From assembly GCA_028712355.1 (NCBI GenBank), contig JAQTQH010000004.1:9-64008 (forward strand): a stretch of DNA of 64,000 nucleotides, written 5' to 3'. Shown in pieces: positions 19,149-28,706 of the stretch. Both the position numbers and the translations under genes were made by a program. The DNA comes from Dehalococcoidales bacterium. Lineage in GTDB: Bacteria; Chloroflexota; Dehalococcoidia; Dehalococcoidales; RBG-16-60-22. The first letter of the stretch is position 1. Every line of letters begins with the position of its first letter. Below the pieces are notes generated by a model. That model worked only from the letters and a program-made list of their open reading frames with translations. It did not search any database and was not told where the DNA came from.

Positions 19149-20570
19149 TTAGTACTTTATCGGGGTGCATTTCCACCAGTAGTCATGAACGCCTGCGACC
19201 AGACGCACCTGACGGAAGGTCATCTCTACAGGCATGCCCACTTTCACCTGGTCGGGATCGCGGTCGGTCATATCGCACATGATTCGGCCACCGCCTTCGA
19301 AGTCGACGGCGCAGACCGTGGACGGCGGGTCGACGCTGGCCGCCAGGTTATCCTGCGAGAACGTGGTGACTTTCGCCGGCTTATTGGCAAATGGATACGA
19401 GGTGAAATCATCTTTGCTGTGGCAAATCATGCACACGCGCTGCGCCGGGTACTGAGGAGCGCCGCACTTGTTGCACTTATTGCCGTACAGGGAAAGCCCA
19501 CCCATATTATCACGCCACAGGGCAACCGCCGAGGGGCGGTCCTGGGGCGGACGGGACGGTGGCTCGGAGATGACGATATCGCGCCAGCGCAGGTACTTCT
19601 CGTAGCTGGGCATCATCCTCTTGGCCGCGGCATGCTTCTTGATGCCGCGCTTGCCCGCCATTTTAGCAACCTTATCTGTTACTGCTATCGAATAGACATC
19701 GCAGCCATCGCCGTAGCTGACCCAGAGCAGCTTATCGCCGGCTTTGGCGTTCTCCAGGGCTTCCACCAGTAACATGAGAGACAGGGCGGTGCCGGTATTG
19801 CCAACCGTGTCCGCCATTGTGCTCTGCACCTGAGTCTTGGGGTCGAAACCGAGACCCTTGACGATGCTGTTCAGCAGGCCAGTATTGGGCACGTTGCAGA
19901 CTATTTTCGTGTAGTCTTTCGGAGTCTTTTTGAAGGCCGCGAGCGCTGCCTTCACCGTATCGTTAATAACCTTGGTATAGCCCTTCTCACGCACGAAACG
20001 CTCTTCGGAGGACTGCACGTAGGTATCCGTCTGCGAGCGATAGACATCAATCATTTCATTAAAGGCAGAATAGGCGTTGTCAATGGTAGCCACCGGCTCG
20101 CCATCACCGATGAGCAATGCACCAGCACCATCACCGAACTCCATCTCCTTGGCGCTGTTAGGCCAGGCGAGGCGGATATCAGCAGCGCAAACCAATGCGT
20201 TCTTTGATGTCTTGGACTTCACGGCGTCCAAAGCAATCTTAACTCCGCTGGTACCGCCGCGCATAGTGCTCGCCAGATCCAGCGTGAAAGCGCCCTTGCC
20301 GACATCAACCGCCATGGCAATTACCGAAGCAGACTGCTTTTCCTTATACGGGAATGTGGTGGAAGCAAAGTAGACGCTATCGACGGACTTTGCGTCTATC
20401 CCGGAGACACAGTCACGGCAGGCGGCTACTGCCAGCGTAATGCTGTCCTCATCAAAATTGGCGACGGCTTTTTCGCCGCGCGAGGGTGGGCCACCCCAGC
20501 CGCGGGCAATTTCCGCCCGGCTCAACCGGTGCCAGGGAACATAAGCGCCATAAGATAAAATACCTATCAT
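19149..20570 (-). CDS. Archaeal-type HMG-CoA-synthase-like (thiolase-fold) domain fused to a DUF35 zinc-ribbon/OB-fold domain
   Basis: The N-terminal ~345 aa resembles archaeal HMGCS (IGILSYGAYVPWHRLSRAEIARGWG, VGNTGTA, VSYGDG). The C-terminal ~120 aa is a DUF35-type rubredoxin-like ribbon (CNKCGAPQYPAQRVCMICHS) plus an OB fold. The start is set at ATG 20570, which has RBS aaggagagg at 8-nt spacing. Confidence 0.8.
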   Translation of the reverse strand: MIGILSYGAYVPWHRLSRAEIARGWGGPPSRGEKAVANFDEDSITLAVAACRDCVSGIDAKSVDSVYFASTTFPYKEKQSASVIAMAVDVGKGAFTLDLASTMRGGTSGVKIALDAVKSKTSKNALVCAADIRLAWPNSAKEMEFGDGAGALLIGDGEPVATIDNAYSAFNEMIDVYRSQTDTYVQSSEERFVREKGYTKVINDTVKAALAAFKKTPKDYTKIVCNVPNTGLLNSIVKGLGFDPKTQVQSTMADTVGNTGTALSLMLLVEALENAKAGDKLLWVSYGDGCDVYSIAVTDKVAKMAGKRGIKKHAAAKRMMPSYEKYLRWRDIVISEPPSRPPQDRPSAVALWRDNMGGLSLYGNKCNKCGAPQYPAQRVCMICHSKDDFTSYPFANKPAKVTTFSQDNLAASVDPPSTVCAVDFEGGGRIMCDMTDRDPDQVKVGMPVEMTFRQVRLVAGVHDYWWKCTPIKY

Positions 20571-20826
20571 CCTTGTCACCTCTCCTTAATAATATATGAA
20601 CTCATTTACGGAATAGCCTGAAAAGGAATTAAAAGTGAATTTTGAGGGTACCCAACACCCAGAAAGACCGCAATGTTTGACTGATTTTTCGCACACCAGA
20701 CTACCTTCACACGTTAGAACTTGAGTGGAAACTTAAGAAAATACCAGCCCAAACTCACTCCAATATAACCCTAAGCACCGCGCATTGTCAAGAATTCCGT
20801 ATGCTGGGGCGATAAGCGGATTATGA

Positions 20827-20856
20827 TTGACAAAAGTCGGTTAAAACCTGTATAGT
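20827..20856 (+). promoter_or_regulatory. Sigma-70-like promoter upstream of the acyl-CoA dehydrogenase gene
   Basis: ttgaca (20827-20832), an 18-nt spacer, then tatagt (20851-20856). Confidence 0.4.
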
Positions 20857-20940
20857 GAAGCCGAATTATGCACCTCTGCCGCAACATTTTTTCCCGCAGG
20901 CAGTTAACCCGCAAAATAATATTAAGATAAGGAGAAGACT

Positions 20941-22065
20941 GTGGATTTTAACCTGAGCGAAGAGCAGTTGATGCTGCAATCGATGGTAAAAGATTTTACC
21001 GCTAAAGAAATCGAACCGAGGGGCAAGCAAATTGACGACACCGCCAAGATTCCCGAAGATTTGATGAAAAAATACGCCGACCTCGGACTGTTCGGCATGG
21101 CGGTACCTAAGGAATATGACGGCTCCGAGATGGGCAACTTCGCCAAGATACTGGCGCTGGAACAACTGGCTTATGCCGGCTGCCCAGCCTGGTGGCCGGT
21201 AGCCTTCAACAACAGCCTGCCGTTCACCATTTATAAATTCGGCAATGATGAGCAGCGCCAGAAATATGTGAAAGGTAACCTGGACGGCAGCAAGCTCTAC
21301 TCCATCCAGTTTACCGAGCCGGAGACTGGCTCCGACCCCACCGCCCTCAAGACCACCGCCAAAAAAGACGGCGATTACTACATCATCAACGGGCAGAAGC
21401 GCTTCAGCACCTTCGGGCAGAAGAACGGCACAGCGATTGTCTGGACCAAGGACGATGAAGGCGGCTGCACCGCTTTCCTCGTCGAAAAGAACACCAAGGG
21501 CTACAGCGCCCCCACCGTCTGGGAACTAATGGCCGGTGAAGGCGAGCCTGCCGATGTCTACTACGAGGACTACCGCGTTCACAAGGACAACATCCTCTAC
21601 GGGAAAGGCAAGGGTTTCGATGTTCTGCTCTTCTGGATTTCCGTGGAAAAGATAGAGGGCTGCATCGTCGCAGTGGCAATGGCGCAGGCTGCCCTTGACG
21701 AGGCGGTCAAATACGGCAAGGAGCGCATCGTCCGCGGCAAACCGATGTCCGATATGCAGGGTATCCGATGGGAGTACGCCGATATGTACGCCAAGATTCA
21801 GGCGTGCCGGTGGATGACCTACCGCACCGCCGCCCTGCTCGATACCGACCCCAAGGCGTTCCAGCGGGAAGCCGCCGCCTGCAAGATATTCGTCCAGCCC
21901 ACCTGCACGCAGGTCATCCTCGACGCGCTGCGACTGCACGGCGGCTACGGCATTACCAAGGAATTCAAGATTGAGCGGCTGTACCGCTCCCAGCCCGGTA
22001 ACATTGTCATCTCGGTAAGCCTGGAAATCAATAAGTCCATCGTGGGTTCGGCGCTGGTAAGATAA
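20941..22065 (+). CDS. Acyl-CoA dehydrogenase
   Basis: GTG start with RBS aaggag. Typical ACAD layout and motifs (FTEPETGSDP, GQKRFST, RLHGGYGITKEF). Confidence 0.9.
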   Translation: MDFNLSEEQLMLQSMVKDFTAKEIEPRGKQIDDTAKIPEDLMKKYADLGLFGMAVPKEYDGSEMGNFAKILALEQLAYAGCPAWWPVAFNNSLPFTIYKFGNDEQRQKYVKGNLDGSKLYSIQFTEPETGSDPTALKTTAKKDGDYYIINGQKRFSTFGQKNGTAIVWTKDDEGGCTAFLVEKNTKGYSAPTVWELMAGEGEPADVYYEDYRVHKDNILYGKGKGFDVLLFWISVEKIEGCIVAVAMAQAALDEAVKYGKERIVRGKPMSDMQGIRWEYADMYAKIQACRWMTYRTAALLDTDPKAFQREAAACKIFVQPTCTQVILDALRLHGGYGITKEFKIERLYRSQPGNIVISVSLEINKSIVGSALVR

Positions 22066-22144
22066 TCTAAACAAGAAAAAGCACTTACCGCACCGTATGT
22101 CGCCACGATGTCCGGTGCGGTAAGTTTTATAAAGGGGGCAGCAA

Positions 22145-23200
22145 ATGATTAAAACCAGAATCACGGAACTGTTCGGCATCAAGCATCCCATCATGCTGGC
22201 GGGTATGAACTGGGTCACTGAACCTAACATCGTCTCCGCCGTCTGCAACGCCGGCGCACTGGGCGTTTTTGCCACCGCGCACTGCACCCCTGAGGAGACT
22301 CGTAAGAACATACAAGAAATCCGCAAGCTCACGGACAAGCCGTTCGGGGTGAATGTCATGCTTAACCTGCCCACGGCACCGGGTAACGTGGAAGCTATCC
22401 TTGATGAGAAGGTGCCCATCGTCAACTATGCGCTGGGCAAACCCGCATTTATCGATAAGGTGCATGCCTACGGCGGCAAGGTCATCGGCACAATCGCCAA
22501 AGCCAAGCACGCCGCCATGGCGGAAAAGCTGGGCGTCGATGCCATGTCCATCACCGGGCATGAAGCCGCCGCCCACGGCATGGAAGCGACTTCCATGATT
22601 CTGATTCCAATCGTCACCAGATGGTCAAAGGTACCCCTCATTGCGGCGGGCGGCTTTTATGACGGGAGCGGATTAGCCGCCGCCCTTTCGCTGGGCGCCG
22701 ATGCCGTCTCAATGGGCACGCGATTCATGCTGACTAAAGAAAGCCCTGTCCACGAAAACCTGAAGAAGTTCTGCCTCGATGCCACCGAGGAAGATTCCGT
22801 TTATAGCGATGTCTTCGACGGACTGCCCAGCCGCGTGATGCGCAACAAGGCATCTTTAAAGCTGCTGAAAGGCGGCTTCCCCCTCTTTAGTTCCTTCACC
22901 AGCGCCCTGCAGATGAAGAAGCTACTCAAGCTCTCGACGTGGGAGATGGTGCGCACCAGCCTGGGCATGATGAAGGCGGAGGAAAAGCGCAATCTCCTCG
23001 ACCAGGCGCGTTTCGCCAACATGGTCATCCTCGCCGAAAAAGCTATTTATAAGGGCGATGTGGAAAACGGCATCATTATCGCAGGGCAGAGCTGCGGCGG
23101 CATCAAAGACAAGGAATTGCCCACCTGTAAAGAGGTCATTGAAAACACGGTCGCCCAGGCGGAATCCATTATGAAGCGGCTGGGCACGCAGGTCTACTAA
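22145..23200 (+). CDS. Nitronate monooxygenase / FMN-dependent enoyl reductase family protein (NPD/FabK-like)
   Basis: TIM-barrel FMN oxidoreductase motifs are present (HPIMLAGMNWV, LIAAGGFYDGSGLAAALSLGADAVSMGTRF). Confidence 0.85.
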   Translation: MIKTRITELFGIKHPIMLAGMNWVTEPNIVSAVCNAGALGVFATAHCTPEETRKNIQEIRKLTDKPFGVNVMLNLPTAPGNVEAILDEKVPIVNYALGKPAFIDKVHAYGGKVIGTIAKAKHAAMAEKLGVDAMSITGHEAAAHGMEATSMILIPIVTRWSKVPLIAAGGFYDGSGLAAALSLGADAVSMGTRFMLTKESPVHENLKKFCLDATEEDSVYSDVFDGLPSRVMRNKASLKLLKGGFPLFSSFTSALQMKKLLKLSTWEMVRTSLGMMKAEEKRNLLDQARFANMVILAEKAIYKGDVENGIIIAGQSCGGIKDKELPTCKEVIENTVAQAESIMKRLGTQVY

Positions 23201-23259
23201 AATCCCTCTTGTGTCTCCCCTTTTCAAGGGGAGCAGCTCATCGTCACCTACCCTCTACG

Positions 23260-23295
23260 TCTCCTTCCCTTATATAGGGAGGGAGAATTGTTTTT
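23260..23295 (+). terminator. Rho-independent terminator after the NPD-family gene
   Basis: The 10-bp stem pairs tctccttccc with gggagggaga (one G-U pair) around the loop ttatata, followed by attgttttt. A second small hairpin (ctcccc-ttttcaa-ggggag) lies at 23215-23233. Confidence 0.55.
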
Positions 23296-23381
23296 AGGAG
23301 AGTCCTATTTTTATTACGTACTAAAGTAATATTGCGCTATTACTAGTACTAACATATCATAATATTTACGGGGTATTAATC

Positions 23382-23993
23382 ATGGTACAATTTTTAAATA
23401 CCGCTCAAACCTATTCTGAAATAGAAAGCATTGTAACAAAAGCAGAAAACAAACTTGTGCTCATTTCGCCCTTCTTAAGCGTTCCAGAACTTATGGTAGA
23501 ACGCCTACGATATGCTGCCATCAGACACAATTTGCCCGTAACGGTAGTATGTCGATTGAAAAAATTGAAAAAAGAAGAACGCAAATCCCTCAAGCGGGTT
23601 TGTAATCTGAAGTTGTTGGATTTACCCAACTTGCATGCAAAGTGTTTCTATAATGAGCAGTCGATGGTTATTACGTCTCTGAACCTTTATGATTTTTCAC
23701 GACTAAACAATAGAGAAATGGGAATTCTGTTGACCAAAGCAAATGATACTGAAGTGTTCAATGAAGCTATGAGCGAAGCTGAATTCATTGTTCAGACCGC
23801 AGTTCCAGAGACACATCGTGTGTTTTCTTTTGAATCGACCAGGGGACCGAGCCAGTTAAATAAATGGGAACACAATCGAAAGCGGAATTCGGTTGGCAGC
23901 CCTTTCACCGCTGATGTTGGTCTCTCGCTAAAAAGAGCTTTCCCAACGTTTTCCAAATTGCTGGGCTTCACGGGCAACAGAAACAGGTTCTAG
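23382..23993 (+). CDS. Phospholipase-D-superfamily (single HKD-like) Nuc-type nuclease candidate
   Basis: AT-rich 203-aa ORF. It has a single HxK motif in the context NLHAKCFYNEQSMVITSLNL (HKD-like with Glu in place of Asp) and a basic C-terminal tail. Confidence 0.6.
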   Translation: MVQFLNTAQTYSEIESIVTKAENKLVLISPFLSVPELMVERLRYAAIRHNLPVTVVCRLKKLKKEERKSLKRVCNLKLLDLPNLHAKCFYNEQSMVITSLNLYDFSRLNNREMGILLTKANDTEVFNEAMSEAEFIVQTAVPETHRVFSFESTRGPSQLNKWEHNRKRNSVGSPFTADVGLSLKRAFPTFSKLLGFTGNRNRF

Positions 23994-24006
23994 AATTTGA
24001 TTCTTC

Positions 24007-24795
24007 TTACTTCCCTTTAAACTTCGGCGGGCGCTTCTCGAAAAAAGCGGCAATCCCCTCGGCGTGGTCATCCGAGTGAATCAACATACCAAAGGCATGG
24101 GCTTCCGCTTCCAGTGACTCTTTGAGGTCTTTATCCACGGCGGTATTGAGCTGGGTCTTGATAATGCCCAGCGCCCGCGTCGGCCCGGCGGCAAGCTGAT
24201 TCGCCAGCGCATAGACTGTCTTTTCCAGCTCGGCGTCCGGCACCACCTGATTAATCAACCCGATGCGCTCGGCTTCTTTAGCGTCAACCATCTTGCCGGT
24301 CATAAAAAGCTCTTTGGCTTTCGCCAGGCCGACCAGCCGCGTCACTAAATAGGAGCCGCCGTAGTCCGAGGCAAGCCCCACCCGCACAAAGAGTTCCCCG
24401 AACATTGCATTATCCGAAGCGATTATCATATCGCAGGCGAGCGCCAGGTTAAAACCCGCCCCCACCGCCGGGCCGCGCACCATGGCGATAACCGGTTTTT
24501 CCATCCCGGTGATGCCGCCCAAAACCCGCAGCATCATCCGGCGCACAGAATCGCGCGTCTCCAGGGGAGTCTTATTATCATGCAGATTTTTCAGGTCTTT
24601 GATGTCCCCGCCCGCGCAAAAGGCTTTGCCTTCACCGCACAGCACCACGACTTTCGTTTCCTCATCATCGCGCAGTTCCTCAAAGACCTGCGCGATACTC
24701 TGGCTCATCCGGCCATCCAGAGCGTTACGGATTTCGGGATGGCTCAATATTAACGTGGTCACACCCTGCTCTTTTTTTACCTTAACAAAATCCAT
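24007..24795 (-). CDS. Enoyl-CoA hydratase/isomerase (crotonase family)
   Basis: The crotonase oxyanion motifs are present (GKAFCAGGDI, VRGPAVGAGFNLALACD). Confidence 0.9.
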   Translation of the reverse strand: MDFVKVKKEQGVTTLILSHPEIRNALDGRMSQSIAQVFEELRDDEETKVVVLCGEGKAFCAGGDIKDLKNLHDNKTPLETRDSVRRMMLRVLGGITGMEKPVIAMVRGPAVGAGFNLALACDMIIASDNAMFGELFVRVGLASDYGGSYLVTRLVGLAKAKELFMTGKMVDAKEAERIGLINQVVPDAELEKTVYALANQLAAGPTRALGIIKTQLNTAVDKDLKESLEAEAHAFGMLIHSDDHAEGIAAFFEKRPPKFKGK

Positions 24796-24811: not shown

Positions 24812-26200
24812 TCAACTGCGTTGCTGGCGGAGCGCTCTCTTCCCTGCCGGGCGTGTATCGCCCCGGTAGTCCGGCGCCAGTATCACGAAGAACGTGCTCA
24901 GCTTGGGGTCAATCAAGCGGGACGCCACGCGCGTCTCTATTTTATCCAGCGAGCAGGTGGTCGTAATGATGGTCGCCAGGCGGGCATTATATCGATAATT
25001 GATTATCTGATAGAGCTTTTCCTGCGCCCACGGCGTGCTCGATTGCTCCCCGAAATCGTCCAGCACCAGCAGCGGCGCCGTCTTGACGCTCTCGAAAAGC
25101 TGGTCGTAAGAGACCTTGCTGTCCGGGCTGAAGGCGTAGCGTAAATGGTCGAGCAGTTCCGGTACGACCTGGAACATGGCGGGGCGGTCCGCTTCATACT
25201 GGTAATTGATGATTGCCGCCGCGAGGTGGGTCTTGCCGCAGCCGTTGACGCCCTGGAAGACCAGCCAGCCTTCCGGCGTCCTGGCAAATTCAAAAGCGAG
25301 GCGCTTCGCCGCTTCAAGGTTTTCGCGCTGCTCGGGCAGCAGGTTGACCCTTTCCATAAAATTCTGGAAAGTCATGCTCTTTTGCGCTTCAAACTGCTGC
25401 CCCCATCCGTAGCCCAGCGTCGGTTTTTCTTCCCCGATGGTATAGATGCAGCACAAGCGCGGGTCGGTGAAGCGCGTGCGCAGTCGGTCGTCGTATTGCT
25501 CCACGGGCGATTGTAAGACAATCACAGTGGGCAACTCGCTGTTAAAGCGGTGCGTCAGCAATTGCTCCAGTTTCTCTTTTGCCCAGGGAGTACCGGCCTG
25601 TGCGCTCAGGTCGTCCAGAACCAGCAGCGGGGCGCTGCGCATCCGCTCAAAAAACTCGTCATAAGGCATCTCGCTGCCGGGACTGAAGGCGGAGCGCAGG
25701 TGGTCGAGCAGGTCGGGAGCGGAGAGGTAAAGAGCCGGGTTATCCTGCTTAATCCGCTCGTTGGCGATCGCGGCGGCGAGGTGGGTCTTGCCGCAGCCGC
25801 TGGGACCGGAGATGATGAACCAGCCTTCTGGCTCAGCGGCGAAAGACTTCGCCGCATTATATACTCGGGCGAACTGCTCCTGCTGGACCGGGCTGCCGCT
25901 CCGGCCGCGCGGCTCAAGATTTTCAAAAGTGGAATTTCGTAGCGAGCCAAGATTACTATATTGTTGCAAGCGTGCCTGGCGGTCTTTGTCCAGATTCTGC
26001 TGCGTGCAGCGGCAGGGCACCACTAGGCTATAGTCCGCCTTCCCCGAAGGAAGAACGGGGTGAACGAAGCCAGCACCTTTACAGAGAGGGCAGTCAGCGT
26101 TGGGCGAAGTTCTTTCCTCAGCGCTGGACCATGTGTCCATATCTCTGTTTGAGGTACCGTTCGCCGCCTTCTTGAGAATCTCGCGGATGTGTTCCATCAC
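24812..26200 (-). CDS. dnaC: DnaC/DnaI-type helicase loader with two tandem AAA+ modules and an N-terminal Cys motif
   Basis: There are two Walker A motifs (SGPSGCGKTHLAAAIAN and QGVNGCGKTHLAAAIIN) and two Walker B motifs (LLVLDDLSAQ and LLVLDDFGEQ). The N-terminus has CPLCKGAGF...CRC. The start is uncertain: codons at 26200/26197/26140 all overlap the upstream gene. Confidence 0.8.
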   Translation of the reverse strand: MMEHIREILKKAANGTSNRDMDTWSSAEERTSPNADCPLCKGAGFVHPVLPSGKADYSLVVPCRCTQQNLDKDRQARLQQYSNLGSLRNSTFENLEPRGRSGSPVQQEQFARVYNAAKSFAAEPEGWFIISGPSGCGKTHLAAAIANERIKQDNPALYLSAPDLLDHLRSAFSPGSEMPYDEFFERMRSAPLLVLDDLSAQAGTPWAKEKLEQLLTHRFNSELPTVIVLQSPVEQYDDRLRTRFTDPRLCCIYTIGEEKPTLGYGWGQQFEAQKSMTFQNFMERVNLLPEQRENLEAAKRLAFEFARTPEGWLVFQGVNGCGKTHLAAAIINYQYEADRPAMFQVVPELLDHLRYAFSPDSKVSYDQLFESVKTAPLLVLDDFGEQSSTPWAQEKLYQIINYRYNARLATIITTTCSLDKIETRVASRLIDPKLSTFFVILAPDYRGDTRPAGKRALRQQRS

Positions 26201-26828
26201 TCCTGCCTTCGTTCGACCAGTGCTCTAAAATTGCAGAAATATAACTCCATTTGCGCTTGTTCTGATTGACCGCTTCTTTGATAGCGTCCCGGATCCAGTC
26301 CGCCGGGTAGAGCTTCTCGGCTTCTTTCAGTTCGTCGGCAATCAGAGGCGTCAACATGCCGATATTCTGTTCGTACATCACAAAAATGTCCGGCGGCGTT
26401 TCGGTTTCTACATACTCACGCCCGGCGACCTTCAGTCCGCTCAGCTTGAACTCTCCGTTTTTTATCCGGGTAATAATCTGCCGGTTGGAGTCATTGTTTA
26501 AAAAATAGACGTCCTCCGATTTGCCGTCTTTCTCTAATTGGAGGTGAAGAAATATGCCCCGCTCCACCGTCATTTGCAGCGCACTTCGCAGAATTGTTTC
26601 CGTCTCTTTTCCCGGACTTTGCAGGCTGCTCATCAGTGCAGCATCCGCTGCCATCTCTCCGTAGCCGACGAATTTGGGGTAGCCGCGCTTGCGGTAAAGC
26701 GCCGCCATTACATATAGAGTAGCCTTCAGTTCGGCAACATCCGTTACCTGGGGCAGCACCGCGCTGAAAAACAGGTTGGGAATCGGCGTGAATTCCAGAC
26801 GCGCAGGGAAACCGTTAAACTTCTTCAT
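26118..26828 (-). CDS. dnaD: DnaD-domain replication protein
   Basis: The C-terminal DnaD/DnaB_2 motif is present (YEQNIGMLTPLIADELKEAEKLYPADWIRDAIKEAVNQNKRKWSYISAILEHW). It has a 4-nt overlap with the dnaB stop. Confidence 0.75.
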   Translation of the reverse strand: MKKFNGFPARLEFTPIPNLFFSAVLPQVTDVAELKATLYVMAALYRKRGYPKFVGYGEMAADAALMSSLQSPGKETETILRSALQMTVERGIFLHLQLEKDGKSEDVYFLNNDSNRQIITRIKNGEFKLSGLKVAGREYVETETPPDIFVMYEQNIGMLTPLIADELKEAEKLYPADWIRDAIKEAVNQNKRKWSYISAILEHWSNEGRSDGTHPRDSQEGGERYLKQRYGHMVQR

Positions 26829-28210
26829 CGCAAGGGGTCTCCCACGCTCTGCTGGCTGGGGAAGTTATCGAACTTGGCCAGGCCGGGGATAAAGCGCAGC
26901 TTAACCTGTCCCGTGGGACCGTTGCGGTGCTTGGCAATGATAATATCGGCTTCGCCGCGGGGGTACTCCTTGTCCGGGTTCTGCAGTTTCCACTCTTCCT
27001 CATTAGGATGATAATATTCTTCGCGATAGATAAACAGCACGATATCGGCATCTTGCTCGATGCTGCCGGACTCGCGGAGGTCGGAGAGCTGGGGAATGTG
27101 GATGGGGCGGCCTTCTACGGCGCGGCTAAGCTGAGAAACGGCGATGACCGGTACGTTAAGCTCGCGCGCCAGCCCCTTCAGCGAACGTGTAATATAACTC
27201 AGTTCCTGCACGCGATTTTCCCGCCGGCCTTCCTCGGTGATGAGCTGGAGGTAATCGACAATAATCATATCAATAGGATGGTCATAGTGCAACCTCAGGG
27301 CTTTGCTGCGCATCTCGGCAACCTTGAGCATCGGCGAATCATCGATATAAATAGGTGCTTCGGAAAGTACGCCGATGGCCTCCATAACGCGTTTTTCTTC
27401 CTCTTCGGTATGCTGCCCGAAACGCACTCGCCGCGAGTTGACTCCCGATTCGTTGGAGAGCAGGCGCATGACCAGCGAGTCCTTCGCCATTTCCAGACTG
27501 AAAATCGCCACGCAGGCACCCTGCATTACTGCGGCGTTGCGCGCGATGCCCAGCGCGAAGCTCGTCTTACCCATGCTGGTCCGTCCCGCCACGATAACAA
27601 GGTCGGAGCGCTGGAATCCGCCGTTAAAGAACTCATCCAGCCCGGTATAGTTGGAGCTGACGTATGGCAGGATAGCATGGGACTTTTCCCCGGCGGCTTC
27701 ACCGACCTCAAAGAATTTGTCCAGCTCCTGCCGGATATGAACGAAATCACGCGGACTCTGCCCGTGACGCAGTTTAAAAAGCAACGACTCGGCGCGGCTA
27801 ATACTCTCATCAACATCGGGGCCGGACTCGTAGCCGATGGCGGAGATACGGTCGCCGGCACTGATAAGCTGACGCATCACCGAAAGGCGAAAAACGATAT
27901 TGGCATAATGTTCGATGTCCAGAGCAGTAGGACAAATCGCAATCAGGTGACTGAGTTGCGCGGCGCCCCCGCAAGACTCCAGCCTGCCCTGCCGCGCCAG
28001 TTCCTGCGCCACCGTAATCTGGTTGATGGCTTCATTACGCCGGTAAAGCTCGGCGCAGGACTGGTACAGCCAGCGGTTCTGCTCGTAGTAAAAATGCTCG
28101 TCGCGAAGGAACGTGGCAATCTTGTGAATGGCGCTGCCATCAATCAGCAGCGAACCGATAACCGCTTCTTCCGCATCGACATCATGGGGCGGTAGTTTTT
28201 CGCCGGTCAT
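26825..28210 (-). CDS. dnaB: Replicative DNA helicase DnaB
   Basis: PPHDVDAEEAVIGSLL is present, with Walker A GRTSMGKTSFAL and IIVDYLQLI. No intein is evident at 461 aa. Confidence 0.95.
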   Translation of the reverse strand: MTGEKLPPHDVDAEEAVIGSLLIDGSAIHKIATFLRDEHFYYEQNRWLYQSCAELYRRNEAINQITVAQELARQGRLESCGGAAQLSHLIAICPTALDIEHYANIVFRLSVMRQLISAGDRISAIGYESGPDVDESISRAESLLFKLRHGQSPRDFVHIRQELDKFFEVGEAAGEKSHAILPYVSSNYTGLDEFFNGGFQRSDLVIVAGRTSMGKTSFALGIARNAAVMQGACVAIFSLEMAKDSLVMRLLSNESGVNSRRVRFGQHTEEEEKRVMEAIGVLSEAPIYIDDSPMLKVAEMRSKALRLHYDHPIDMIIVDYLQLITEEGRRENRVQELSYITRSLKGLARELNVPVIAVSQLSRAVEGRPIHIPQLSDLRESGSIEQDADIVLFIYREEYYHPNEEEWKLQNPDKEYPRGEADIIIAKHRNGPTGQVKLRFIPGLAKFDNFPSQQSVGDPLR

Positions 28211-28214
28211 GGCG

Positions 28215-28706
28215 TCAAATCTCCTTCTTCCCCTCCCCCACCGGTTTAGCCACCTCGTCTTCTTCTCTCTGAACGGTTACCTTTACTTTAGGGACAATAT
28301 CGTGGGCGAGGCGTACTGGTACATCATAGCTGCCCAGTTGATGAATCGGCTCCGCCATTTCGATTGTCTTCTTGTCAATTTCATAGCCGCAGGCTTTACT
28401 CAGCGCGCCGGCAACATCAGCGCTGGTAATGGATCCATAAAGGCGCTCTTTTTCCCCGGCGTGCGCCTTGAGCAATATTTCCGTCCCCTCGATTTTAGTC
28501 GCCAGTTCGCGCATCTCTCCTTCAAATTTGGCGATGCGGCGCTCTCTCTGTTTTAACTGAGCCTCAACGACGTTGGCGTATTTGGAGTCCGCCAGCACCG
28601 CCAGTTTGCGGGGCAGCAGGTAGTTGCGGCCGTAGCCGTCCGCCACTTCTTTAGTCTGACCGGCTTTCGCCACGTTGGAGACATCTTCCAAAAAAGTTAC
28701 CTTCAC
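28215..28706 (-). CDS. rplI: 50S ribosomal protein L9
   Basis: MKVTFLEDVSNVAKAGQTKEVADGYGRNYLLPRKLA is the canonical L9 N-terminus. The C-terminus is extended and acidic. Confidence 0.9.
   Translation of the reverse strand: MKVTFLEDVSNVAKAGQTKEVADGYGRNYLLPRKLAVLADSKYANVVEAQLKQRERRIAKFEGEMRELATKIEGTEILLKAHAGEKERLYGSITSADVAGALSKACGYEIDKKTIEMAEPIHQLGSYDVPVRLAHDIVPKVKVTVQREEDEVAKPVGEGKKEI

What the first reader, a model, noticed from the sequence alone, without database searches (positions are those of the whole stretch)
24812..26200. Helicase loader with two complete DnaC-type AAA+ modules in one polypeptide
The ORF contains two ~185-aa repeats. Each has Walker A (GCGKTHLAAAI), Walker B (LLVLDD), the PWA(K/Q)EKL helix and a downstream Arg-rich box.

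At the DNA level, the 22-mer gaggtgggtcttgccgcagccg occurs twice (about 25221 and about 25775), roughly 555 nt apart. An N-terminal CPLCKGAGF...CRC motif precedes the repeats. The gene closes an rplI-dnaB-dnaD-dnaC operon.

Characterised loaders (DnaC, DnaI) have one AAA+ module per chain and assemble around hexameric DnaB. A tandem version implies a different stoichiometry, for example three chains per helicase, and possibly specialised ATP sites.
Basis: partly seen in the sequence, partly recalled or inferred. Interest (0 to 1): 0.65.

Follow-up and report, generated by a model that had tools for sequence, protein, structure and literature searches.

The report
Helicase loader with duplicated ATPase module
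This Dehalococcoidales bacterium, like most of its phylum sampled here, encodes next to its replicative helicase a DnaC/DnaI-type loader with two ATPase modules on one chain instead of one. No paper I could search describes this form, and it could change how many loader chains are needed per helicase ring.

Summary
A 461/462-aa ORF on the minus strand (24812-26197/26200) has a Cys4 zinc N-terminal domain followed by two DnaC/DnaI-type AAA+ modules. The modules are offset by 185 aa and are 44% identical. The gene follows trxA-trxB-rplI-dnaB-dnaD-like.

It is not an artefact. The same architecture occurs in hundreds of independent Chloroflexota sequences (genomes labelled Dehalococcoidia and Anaerolineae) down to about 33% identity. 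It almost always sits after dnaB and a DnaD-domain gene. All phage and outside relatives found are single-module.

"Two complete modules" is only partly right. Both keep the Walker A Lys, Walker B DD, box VII Arg-coupler and Arg-finger, and the ssDNA-contact residues. M1 lacks the sensor I Asn and the sensor II Arg. M2 keeps sensor II (PDYR).

Anaerolineae show the reverse pattern: M1 is canonical and M2 is eroded. Relatives at the same locus carry 1, 3 or 4 modules.

Best reading: this is the chromosomal helicase loader, built as a covalent asymmetric pair. Three chains per DnaB hexamer is plausible but unproven. AlphaFold gives no fixed inter-module packing.

It is a new variant of a known kind. 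I found no published description.

The parts
24812..26197 (-). Tandem-AAA+ helicase-loader gene (461 aa from ATG 26197; the ORF listing gives GTG 26200, 462 aa; stop codon included)
   Evidence: 100% identical to P0001, 461 aa, 'ATP-binding protein [Dehalococcoidales bacterium]'
25961..26098 (-). N-terminal Cys4 zinc-binding domain (aa 35-80; C37, C40, C63, C65). It is the presumed helicase-binding domain, and there is one per chain.
   Evidence: All four Cys are 50/50 conserved in A3. AF2 pLDDT is 57-74, with a beta-hairpin plus a helix at aa 64-79. The position is analogous to the Zn-binding N-domain of DnaI (PMC1636449); homology is not shown.
25436..25939 (-). AAA+ module 1 (aa 88-255). 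Walker A K138; Walker B D196/D197; sensor I position Q230 (not Asn); Arg-coupler R239; Arg-finger R243; no sensor II Arg. ssDNA-tetrad equivalents R169/F172/T204/W206.
25382..25435 (-). Inter-module linker (aa 256-273); aa 258-263 are predicted disordered
   Evidence: pLDDT <50 in both AF2 models
24857..25381 (-). AAA+ module 2 (aa 274-448). Walker A K323; Walker B D381/D382; sensor I position T415; coupler R424; Arg-finger R428; sensor II R446 in the PDYR motif. ssDNA-tetrad equivalents R354/F357/T389/W391.
25778..25799 (+). Copy 1 of the exact 22-mer (reverse complement encodes G135-L141 of the M1 P-loop)
25223..25244 (+). Copy 2 of the exact 22-mer (reverse complement encodes G320-L326 of the M2 P-loop)
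26118..26828 (-). DnaD-domain protein gene (236 aa). Its 3' end overlaps the loader start by 80 nt.
   Evidence: PF07261 1.6e-9 and TIGR01446 7e-13. The overlap is conserved in Dehalococcoidales loci.
26825..28210 (-). dnaB replicative helicase gene (461 aa)
   Evidence: PF03796 2.8e-97 and PF00772 7.7e-29
28215..28706 (-). rplI (ribosomal protein L9)
   Evidence: PF03948 and PF01281

Best explanation
This is the chromosomal replicative-helicase loader of a Dehalococcoidales bacterium. It belongs to the DnaC/DnaI family (AAA+ initiator clade).

**What the sequence shows.**
- One zinc-binding N-terminal domain, presumably the DnaB-binding domain, is followed by two AAA+ modules. These arose by an internal duplication inside Chloroflexota.
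- The gene is co-transcribed, and probably translationally coupled, with dnaB and a DnaD-domain protein.
- The two modules are not equivalent. Both keep a P-loop, Walker B DD, the box VII Arg-coupler and Arg-finger, and the residues that contact ssDNA in E. coli DnaC. M2 keeps the sensor II Arg. M1 has lost the sensor I Asn and sensor II.

**What I infer.**
- Both modules bind ATP and ssDNA, and both join the loader's AAA+ spiral on DnaB.
- The composite site made of the M2 pocket plus the strictly conserved M1 R239/R243 is the hydrolysis-competent 'switch' site.
- The site made of the M1 pocket plus M2 R428 is a binding or regulatory site.
- The chain therefore acts as a covalent version of the non-equivalent DnaI dimer.
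- The favoured assembly is three chains (six modules, three zinc domains) per DnaB hexamer. This stoichiometry is not demonstrated.
For: **Family and fold.**
- Pfam IstB_IS21 and Bac_DnaA each match two stretches. NCBIfam PRK08116 scores above its cut-off.
- The PDB profile search hits Aquifex DnaC at 1.5e-29, E. coli DnaC at 3e-26 and DnaI at 5e-25.
- By Foldseek, each module matches 3ec2 (TM 0.78), 2w58, 5he8 and 6qem_G.

**Context.**
- The order dnaB, then a DnaD-like gene, then the loader is kept in nearly all of about 40 Chloroflexota loci.
- The gene also lies on 3.9-4.0 Mb contigs.

**Not an artefact.**
- At least 120 clusters are 64-85% identical.
- About 90 of the best 150 representatives at 50% clustering are full-length tandems, down to 33% identity.
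- M1/M2 nucleotide identity is 56%, with no excess of shared synonymous codons.

**Origin.**
- All Chloroflexota modules group together against outside single-module relatives.
- Position-1 modules are more M1-like than position-2 modules in 84 of 99 proteins.
- Phage and IMG/VR relatives are all single-module.

**Asymmetry.**
- Residues were mapped onto the E. coli DnaC functional residues of PMC8213410.
- In the window's clade (alignment A3, 50 sequences):
  - M1 coupler R 49/50 and M1 finger R 48/50.
  - M1 sensor I is Ile/Val/Leu in 38/50 (Asn in 4) and M1 has no sensor II.
  - M2 finger R 50/50 and M2 sensor II R 50/50.
  - M2 coupler R only 32/50.
- The ssDNA tetrad is kept in both modules.

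**Precedents.**
- DnaI binds DnaB6 as three non-equivalent dimers (PMC3791466).
- DciA binds DnaB at 3:6 (PMC8216460).
Against: - There is no biochemical or structural evidence for any member of the family.
- AlphaFold2 gives confident modules (pLDDT 87) but no defined M1-M2 arrangement (pTM 0.46 full length, 0.52 core).
- Module number at the same locus varies. L033 has 1. P0122 and P0271 have 3. P0121 has 4. Four modules do not divide six.
- Across the whole family the eroded module also loses its own Arg finger in 13-19% of lineages, while the canonical module never does. This fits canonical-canonical contacts as well as it fits an alternating ring.
- Neither module of this protein has the sensor I Asn. 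In E. coli DnaC the N203A substitution abolishes ATPase activity (PMC8213410).
- The rest of the genome is unseen, so a second loader or a DciA cannot be excluded.
Confidence: 0.7

Rival explanations
1. Six chains bind each DnaB hexamer, one zinc domain per DnaB subunit as in DnaC and DnaI. Only the canonical module (M2 here) forms the usual six-membered loader spiral. The extra module (M1) is an accessory or regulatory nucleotide-binding domain outside the ring. It might be an autoinhibitor, a second ssDNA or DnaA/DnaD contact, or a second tier.
For: - Across the family, cis and trans elements erode in the same module, while the canonical module keeps everything, including its own Arg finger (100% against 81-87%).
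- A close relative (L033) has only the zinc domain plus an M2-type module.
- In L042, M1 is heavily degraded (GSGRTR, no box VII Arg).
- The module count varies from 1 to 4.
- AF2 shows no fixed M1-M2 interface.
Against: - The eroded module still keeps its P-loop Lys (98% or more), its ssDNA-contact tetrad (W 43/43 and R 38/43 in Type B M1) and, mostly, its Arg finger.
- In the window's own clade, the M1 coupler and finger are nearly invariant while M1's own pocket has decayed. That is the pattern expected if M1 completes M2's site.
Confidence: 0.27
2. The tandem is an assembly or sequencing artefact: a collapsed or duplicated repeat, or two adjacent genes fused by a missed stop codon.
For: An exact 24-nt repeat lies at the two P-loops.
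Against: - The modules are only 56% identical in DNA and 44% in protein, with no stop between them.
- The same architecture occurs in at least 120 close clusters and about 90 distant representatives. These come from NCBI, JGI, ENA and Logan assemblies, including megabase contigs.
Confidence: 0.01
3. It is not the host's loader. It would instead be a mobile-element ATPase (an IS21 IstB helper) or a prophage replication module that happens to sit near dnaB.
For: - Pfam's best hit is IstB_IS21.
- Phage genomes carry DnaD-like plus DnaC-like gene pairs with 30-37% identity.
- Literature proposes that dnaC/dnaI genes were domesticated from phages, including once in Chloroflexi (PMC5109545).
Against: - NCBIfam IS21_help_AAA scores 119.5 against a cut-off of 200.
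- There is no transposase or phage gene nearby. The neighbours are trxA, trxB, rplI, dnaB and fatty-acid metabolism genes.
- Synteny with dnaB is conserved across two classes.
- No viral contig carries a tandem form.
Confidence: 0.03

Closest known systems
DnaI of Bacillota (B. subtilis, G. kaustophilus, S. aureus; PDB 4M4W, 2W58, 5HE8) with its partners DnaD and DnaB(remodeller)
   Same: - An N-terminal zinc-binding domain is followed by a DnaC/DnaI-type AAA+ fold (TM 0.69-0.76).
- The box VII pattern R-x3-R aligns to DnaI's ARIMER.
- A DnaD-domain gene is its partner.
- DnaI sits on DnaB6 as three non-equivalent dimers.
   Different: - It has two AAA+ modules per chain and one zinc domain per pair.
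- The zinc site is Cys4, whereas DnaI uses C67/C70/H84 (PMC1636449).
- It is below the NCBIfam DnaI equivalog cut-off (108 against 228).
- The loader gene lies directly after dnaB.
DnaC of Aquifex aeolicus (PDB 3EC2/3ECC) and E. coli (6QEL/6QEM)
   Same: - Aquifex DnaC is the best structural and sequence match for each module (1.5e-29; TM 0.78).
- It shares Walker A, Walker B, the ssDNA tetrad, the Arg coupler and finger and, in M2, sensor II.
   Different: - DnaC has one AAA+ module per chain and six chains per DnaB6.
- E. coli DnaC has a helical, non-zinc N-terminal domain.
- Neither module here has the sensor I Asn.
- It is below the DnaC equivalog cut-off (104.5 against 357).
Single-module Chloroflexota loaders (Ktedonobacteria L038, Thermomicrobiales L040, L035, L039) and NCBIfam PRK08116 / PRK06921 'DnaC-like ATP-binding proteins'
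   Same: - Same zinc domain, same module type and same position after dnaB and the DnaD-like gene.
- PRK08116 is matched above its cut-off.
   Different: They have one module. They represent the presumed ancestral state of the tandem form.
Type II AAA+ proteins with two modules per chain (p97/Cdc48, NSF, ClpB)
   Same: - Two P-loop AAA+ modules on one chain.
- In some of these proteins one ring is catalytic and the other mainly structural or regulatory (my own knowledge, not tested here).
   Different: - They belong to a different AAA+ clade and have lid domains.
- Whole-chain superposition is poor (TM about 0.25, rmsd 15-20 A).
- There is no evidence here for stacked rings.

Membership tests
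DnaC/DnaI-type replicative helicase loader (AAA+ initiator clade) | AAA+ P-loop domain with Walker A GxxGxGK[TS] and Walker B hhhhD[DE] | tested here: met
   Present twice: K138 with D196/D197, and K323 with D381/D382. All are 50/50 conserved in the clade.
DnaC/DnaI-type replicative helicase loader (AAA+ initiator clade) | Fold and sequence closest to solved DnaC/DnaI AAA+ domains | tested here: met
   Profile against PDB: Aquifex DnaC 1.5e-29, E. coli DnaC 3e-26, DnaI 4.8e-25. Foldseek TM 0.63-0.78 per module.
DnaC/DnaI-type replicative helicase loader (AAA+ initiator clade) | Box VII arginine finger (and the upstream Arg-coupler of PMC8213410) | tested here: met
   R239/R243 and R424/R428. 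The SRL motif aligns with high posterior probability to Aquifex ASRL and DnaI ARIMER. The register against E. coli DnaC is ambiguous.
DnaC/DnaI-type replicative helicase loader (AAA+ initiator clade) | Sensor I Asn (E. coli N203) | tested here: not met
   The positions are Q230 in M1 and T415 in M2. In the clade M1 is mostly Ile/Val and M2 mostly Arg/Ala. The Asn is present in Anaerolineae M1 and in the single-module L033.
DnaC/DnaI-type replicative helicase loader (AAA+ initiator clade) | Sensor II Arg (E. coli R237) | tested here: inconclusive
   Met in M2 (R446 in PDYR, 50/50). Absent from M1.
DnaC/DnaI-type replicative helicase loader (AAA+ initiator clade) | N-terminal helicase-binding domain | tested here: inconclusive
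   A conserved Cys4 domain is present. No sequence or fold match to the DnaI or DnaC N-domains was obtained. Binding to DnaB is untested.
DnaC/DnaI-type replicative helicase loader (AAA+ initiator clade) | Genomic or functional link to the replicative helicase DnaB | tested here: met
   The gene lies two genes downstream of dnaB. This synteny is conserved in about 40 loci.
DnaC/DnaI-type replicative helicase loader (AAA+ initiator clade) | One AAA+ module per polypeptide | tested here: not met
   There are two modules here, and 1-4 in relatives.
DnaC/DnaI-type replicative helicase loader (AAA+ initiator clade) | ATP- and ssDNA-dependent loading of DnaB | not testable with these tools
   Needs biochemistry.
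NCBIfam equivalogs DnaC (NF005931) and DnaI (NF006505) | Whole-protein score above the curated cut-off | tested here: not met
   DnaC 104.5 against 357. DnaI 108.1 against 228. Only the subfamily model PRK08116 passes (198.1 against 189).
IstB (IS21 transposition helper ATPase) | Score above the equivalog cut-off and an adjacent IstA transposase | tested here: not met
   IS21_help_AAA scores 119.5 against 200. No transposase lies in the neighbourhood.
Type II AAA+ (p97/NSF/ClpB-like two-ring ATPases) | Two AAA+ modules with lid domains that superpose on D1-D2 chains | tested here: not met
   Whole-chain TM is about 0.25 with rmsd 15-20 A. The modules are of the DnaC type without lids.

The most novel reading that the evidence does not exclude
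Most of the Chloroflexota sampled here (genomes labelled Dehalococcoidia and Anaerolineae) would load their replicative helicase with a covalent-dimer loader. Three chains per DnaB hexamer would form a six-module spiral in which hydrolysing and non-hydrolysing ATP sites alternate, in the manner of F1-ATPase. Only three helicase-binding domains would be used. Which module is catalytic would have been fixed in opposite ways in the two classes.
Probability: 0.35. Interest if true: 0.75.

Novelty: new variant of a known kind. Interest (0 to 1): 0.58.

Why it matters
Every characterised AAA+ helicase loader (DnaC, DnaI, phage homologues) has one ATPase module per chain and is discussed as six equivalent protomers. 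Yet structures show cracked, asymmetric assemblies, and for DnaI a trimer of non-equivalent dimers.

A natural, phylum-wide covalent pair offers several things:
- It hard-wires that asymmetry.
- The two ATP sites can be mutated separately.
- It poses a clean stoichiometry question: three or six chains, and three or six helicase contacts.
- It comes with built-in evolutionary controls. These are the reciprocal erosion in Anaerolineae versus Dehalococcoidia, a single-module revertant, and three- and four-module forms.

It also affects annotation. These genes are labelled 'ATP-binding protein' or 'DnaC' with no hint of the architecture. Surveys that count dnaC/dnaI presence treat the Chloroflexi gene as ordinary.

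Tried and rejected
- **NJ tree of modules.** Deep branches are unresolved, so it cannot decide between one duplication and several.
- **Plain identity test of M1/M2 orthology.** It was ambiguous: M2-M2 identity (0.35) is no higher than cross-module identity (0.37). The reciprocal erosion found later explains this.
- **HMM contrast test.** It supports positional orthology in 84 of 99 proteins. All 15 exceptions are Type A proteins, so independent duplications in Anaerolineae and Dehalococcoidia are not excluded.
- **MAFFT alignment of box VII to E. coli DnaC.** It put R243 opposite R216. I rejected this in favour of the HMMER profile alignments to Aquifex DnaC and DnaI.
- **Two AlphaFold2 runs, full length and core only.** Neither gave a confident inter-module arrangement.
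- **AFDB search.** The library was unavailable.
- **Gene-conversion test for the 22-mer.** Only a weak local signal.
- **Cluster look-up for names of cultured organisms.** Only MAG or unnamed entries came back.
- **Four literature searches.** None found a description of a tandem-AAA+ helicase loader.
- **Fixed-offset motif counts for M2 in the 111-sequence set (last lines).** Discarded because of indels. The alignment-based counts were used instead.
Full report
**1. The observation**

The minus strand carries an uninterrupted ORF at 24812..26200. Three things point to ATG 26197 as the real start, giving 461 aa. The homologues begin MEHI. There is a GAAGG Shine-Dalgarno 8 nt upstream. The 100%-identical database entry P0001 is 461 aa.

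A local self-alignment pairs aa 88-255 with aa 274-440. It gives 74/167 identities (44%), score 393, and an offset of 185 aa or 555 nt.

The 22-mer occurs exactly twice, at + strand 25223 and 25778. It is the reverse complement of the codons for GCGKTHL, and the exact run is 24 nt.

Upstream on the same strand lie a DnaD-domain protein (26118..26828), DnaB (26825..28210), L9 (28215..28706), thioredoxin reductase and thioredoxin.

Downstream, a crotonase-family gene starts 16 nt after the loader's stop codon. No terminator-like site lies in the gap. That gene is absent from the related loci. So the loader is the last conserved gene of the replication cluster, but it is not demonstrably the end of the transcript.

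**2. It is real and lineage-wide**

Several results exclude an assembly duplication.
- The two modules are 56% identical in DNA.
- At identical residues the same codon is used 31 times out of 70, against 29.3 expected from codon usage.
- The word-indexed protein search returned at least 120 clusters at 64-85% identity and 442-474 aa, all from Chloroflexota or Dehalococcoidia assemblies.
- The exhaustive search of 50%-identity representatives found 626 proteins at E<1e-30.
- About 90 of the best 150 are full-length two-P-loop proteins, down to 33% identity.

A scan of species-representative genomes found the tandem in MAGs labelled Dehalococcoidia and Anaerolineae. Two hits carry other labels (Acidimicrobiia L017, Pleurocapsa L021). 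A few loci have single-module loaders: L033, L035, L039, L038 (Dictyobacter) and L040 (Thermomicrobiales).

In nearly all of these loci the order is dnaB, then a DnaD-like gene, then the loader. rplI lies upstream in the Dehalococcoidia loci, and trxB too in the closest ones. Some members lie on 3.9-4.0 Mb contigs.

All hits in 574 phage records and in the best 80 IMG/VR loci span no more than about 810 nt, which means one module. Several sit beside a DnaD-like gene.

**3. What it is**

- Pfam IstB_IS21 and Bac_DnaA each match two stretches.
- NCBIfam PRK08116 passes its cut-off. The DnaC, DnaI and IstB equivalogs do not.
- A profile of diverse tandem proteins hits Aquifex DnaC (1.5e-29), E. 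coli DnaC (3e-26), DnaI (about 1e-23 to 1e-25), then IstB and DnaA.
- The AlphaFold2 model has confident modules. Each superposes on Aquifex DnaC (TM 0.78, rmsd 2.9 A), DnaI (0.69-0.76) and E. coli DnaC (0.63).
- The two-AAA+ chains of p97 and NSF align only by domain order (TM about 0.25).
- The N-terminal domain has four invariant Cys. It occupies the position of DnaI's zinc-binding helicase-interaction domain (PMC1636449, PMC2673437). Homology between the two was not shown.
- The DnaB 'determinant' position of PMC8216460 aligns to M276 or E277. It is not the Ser found in dciA species. The register is uncertain by one residue, and one of the two alignments uses an E. coli fragment recalled from memory.

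**4. The two modules are not equivalent**

I mapped the residues that Puri et al. tested in E. coli DnaC (PMC8213410): K112, E170, N203, R216, R220, R237 and the ssDNA tetrad K143/F146/S177/Y179.

| Element | M1 | M2 |
|---|---|---|
| Walker A Lys | K138 | K323 |
| Walker B | D196/D197 | D381/D382 |
| Sensor I position | Q230 | T415 |
| Arg-coupler | R239 | R424 |
| Arg-finger | R243 | R428 |
| Sensor II Arg | none | R446 |
| ssDNA-tetrad equivalents | R169/F172/T204/W206 | R354/F357/T389/W391 |

MAFFT's register against E. coli in box VII was overruled by the high-posterior HMMER alignments to Aquifex ASRL and DnaI ARIMER.

In the window's clade (50 sequences, 41-85% identity):
- The M1 coupler and finger are nearly invariant (R 49/50 and 48/50).
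- The M1 sensor I position is mostly Ile or Val.
- M1 has no sensor II.
- The M2 finger and sensor II are invariant.
- The M2 coupler is relaxed (R 32/50).

This is the pattern expected if M1's box VII completes M2's pocket to form the 'good' site, and M2's box VII faces M1's decayed pocket. That reading is an inference.

**5. Family-wide pattern**

Among 92 aligned sequences (the window protein plus 91 tandem representatives), two reciprocal subtypes appear.
- **Type A (30 proteins).** M1 is fully canonical: sensor I Asn 29/30, coupler 29/30, finger 30/30, PDYR present. M2 is eroded.
- **Type B (43 proteins, including the window).** M2 is canonical and M1 is eroded.
- **Both sensor II motifs (12 proteins).**
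- **Neither motif (7 sequences).**

In the taxon-labelled loci, M1 is canonical in Anaerolineae, where M2 often still keeps its sensor II. Dehalococcoidia are Type B.

Both modules keep the P-loop Lys in at least 98% of proteins. Both keep the ssDNA tetrad in both types. The eroded module loses its own Arg finger in 13-19% of lineages. The canonical module never does.

**6. Origin**

- All Chloroflexota modules group together against outside single-module relatives from Acidobacteriota, Clostridia, Aquificae and others.
- HMMs of M1 and M2 trained on the window's clade rank position-1 modules as more M1-like than position-2 modules in 84 of 99 other tandem proteins (p about 8e-13). All 15 exceptions are Type A. 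One ancient duplication is therefore favoured, but two are not excluded.
- L033 is a close relative (DnaB 66% identical). It has the zinc domain joined to an M2-type module with the M2-specific lead-in, which is best read as a secondary deletion of M1.
- P0121 has four modules: three M1-type copies 55-67% identical to each other, plus M2. It lies after an intein-bearing dnaB and a DnaD-like gene.
- P0122 and P0271 have three modules: two M1 copies 85% identical, plus M2.

Module number at this locus is therefore evolutionarily labile.

**7. Mechanism**

*Shown:* the family, the fold, the motifs, the synteny and the conservation.

*Inferred:* the protein loads DnaB, both modules bind ATP and ssDNA, and M2 carries the hydrolytic switch site completed by M1's arginines.

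The stoichiometry is open.

For three chains per hexamer:
- There is a single zinc domain per pair of modules.
- DNA-contact and P-loop residues are retained in both modules.
- The clade-level co-variation of section 4 fits.
- There are precedents: DnaI as a trimer of non-equivalent dimers on DnaB6 (PMC3791466), and DciA at 3:6 (PMC8216460).

Against it:
- pTM is 0.46 (full length) and 0.52 (core), with a disordered linker at aa 258-263.
- Forms with 1, 3 and 4 modules exist.
- The family-wide erosion is concentrated within one module.

I put the alternating three-chain model at about 0.35-0.45 and the six-chain accessory-module model at about 0.27.

**8. Novelty**

Brezellec et al. counted one dna[CI] domestication in Chloroflexi, with Dehalococcoides and Anaerolinea in their data set. 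The main text of that paper does not mention 'tandem' or duplication. Four full-text searches found no paper describing a helicase loader with tandem AAA+ modules. Databases label these proteins 'ATP-binding protein' or 'DnaC'.

It is a new architectural variant of a known kind, not a new kind of system.

Noticed in passing
window 26118-26197 (minus strand): The 3' end of the DnaD-like gene and the 5' end of the loader gene overlap by 80 nt in different frames. Overlaps of 80-83 nt recur in the close Dehalococcoidales loci L001-L006. In Anaerolineae the overlap is small or absent, yet the loader still matches from residue 2 in some (L008, L009). So the N-terminal peptide appears to be real, and translational coupling is likely.
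   Followed up: partly
P0032 (671 aa) and P0352 (638 aa), relatives /: These longer relatives carry about 200 extra N-terminal residues ahead of the zinc motif. P0032 also has a PF07261 DnaD-type domain. They are either natural DnaD-loader fusions or frameshifted calls across the overlap.
   Followed up: partly
L081 5001-7484 (P0121) and L082 5001-7385 (P0271); also P0122: These are loaders with four and three AAA+ modules at the same dnaB-linked position. In L082 there is no separate DnaD-like gene between dnaB and the loader. P0271 also has a duplicated C-terminal segment of about 85 aa.
   Followed up: partly
L081 2433-4259: The dnaB gene next to the four-module loader is 608 aa and carries an intein (PF14890 Intein_splicing).
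   Followed up: no
L033 5974-6840: A Dehalococcoidia relative (DnaB 66% identical to the window's) has a single-module loader made of the zinc domain plus an M2-type module. That module has a canonical TTN sensor I. It looks like a precise secondary loss of M1. Assembly collapse was not checked.
   Followed up: partly
window 25223-25246 and 25778-25801; P-loop codons in 33 genomes: The two P-loops share a 24-nt exact run. Across 33 genomes, codon identity between the two P-loops of the same genome is 0.62, against 0.44 between genomes. For the other columns the figures are 0.50 and 0.41. This is a weak hint of short-tract gene conversion at the P-loop.
   Followed up: partly
window 23382-23993 (+ strand): A 203-aa ORF with no Pfam hit at 1e-5. 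It contains an LHAKCF...TSLN stretch that resembles a phospholipase-D/HKD nuclease motif. This is my own reading and was not tested.
   Followed up: no
window 19149-24795: A cluster of fatty-acid or CoA-ester metabolism genes abuts the replication cluster. It comprises a thiolase-like/ChsH2 OB-fold protein, an acyl-CoA dehydrogenase, an NMO-family oxidoreductase and an enoyl-CoA hydratase. The hydratase starts 16 nt after the loader's stop codon on the same strand.
   Followed up: partly
L017 ('Acidimicrobiia') and L021 ('Pleurocapsa minor'): Two MAGs labelled as non-Chloroflexota carry a typical dnaB, DnaD-like, tandem-loader locus. These are probably mis-binned or mislabelled contigs rather than horizontal transfer. 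This was not checked.
   Followed up: no
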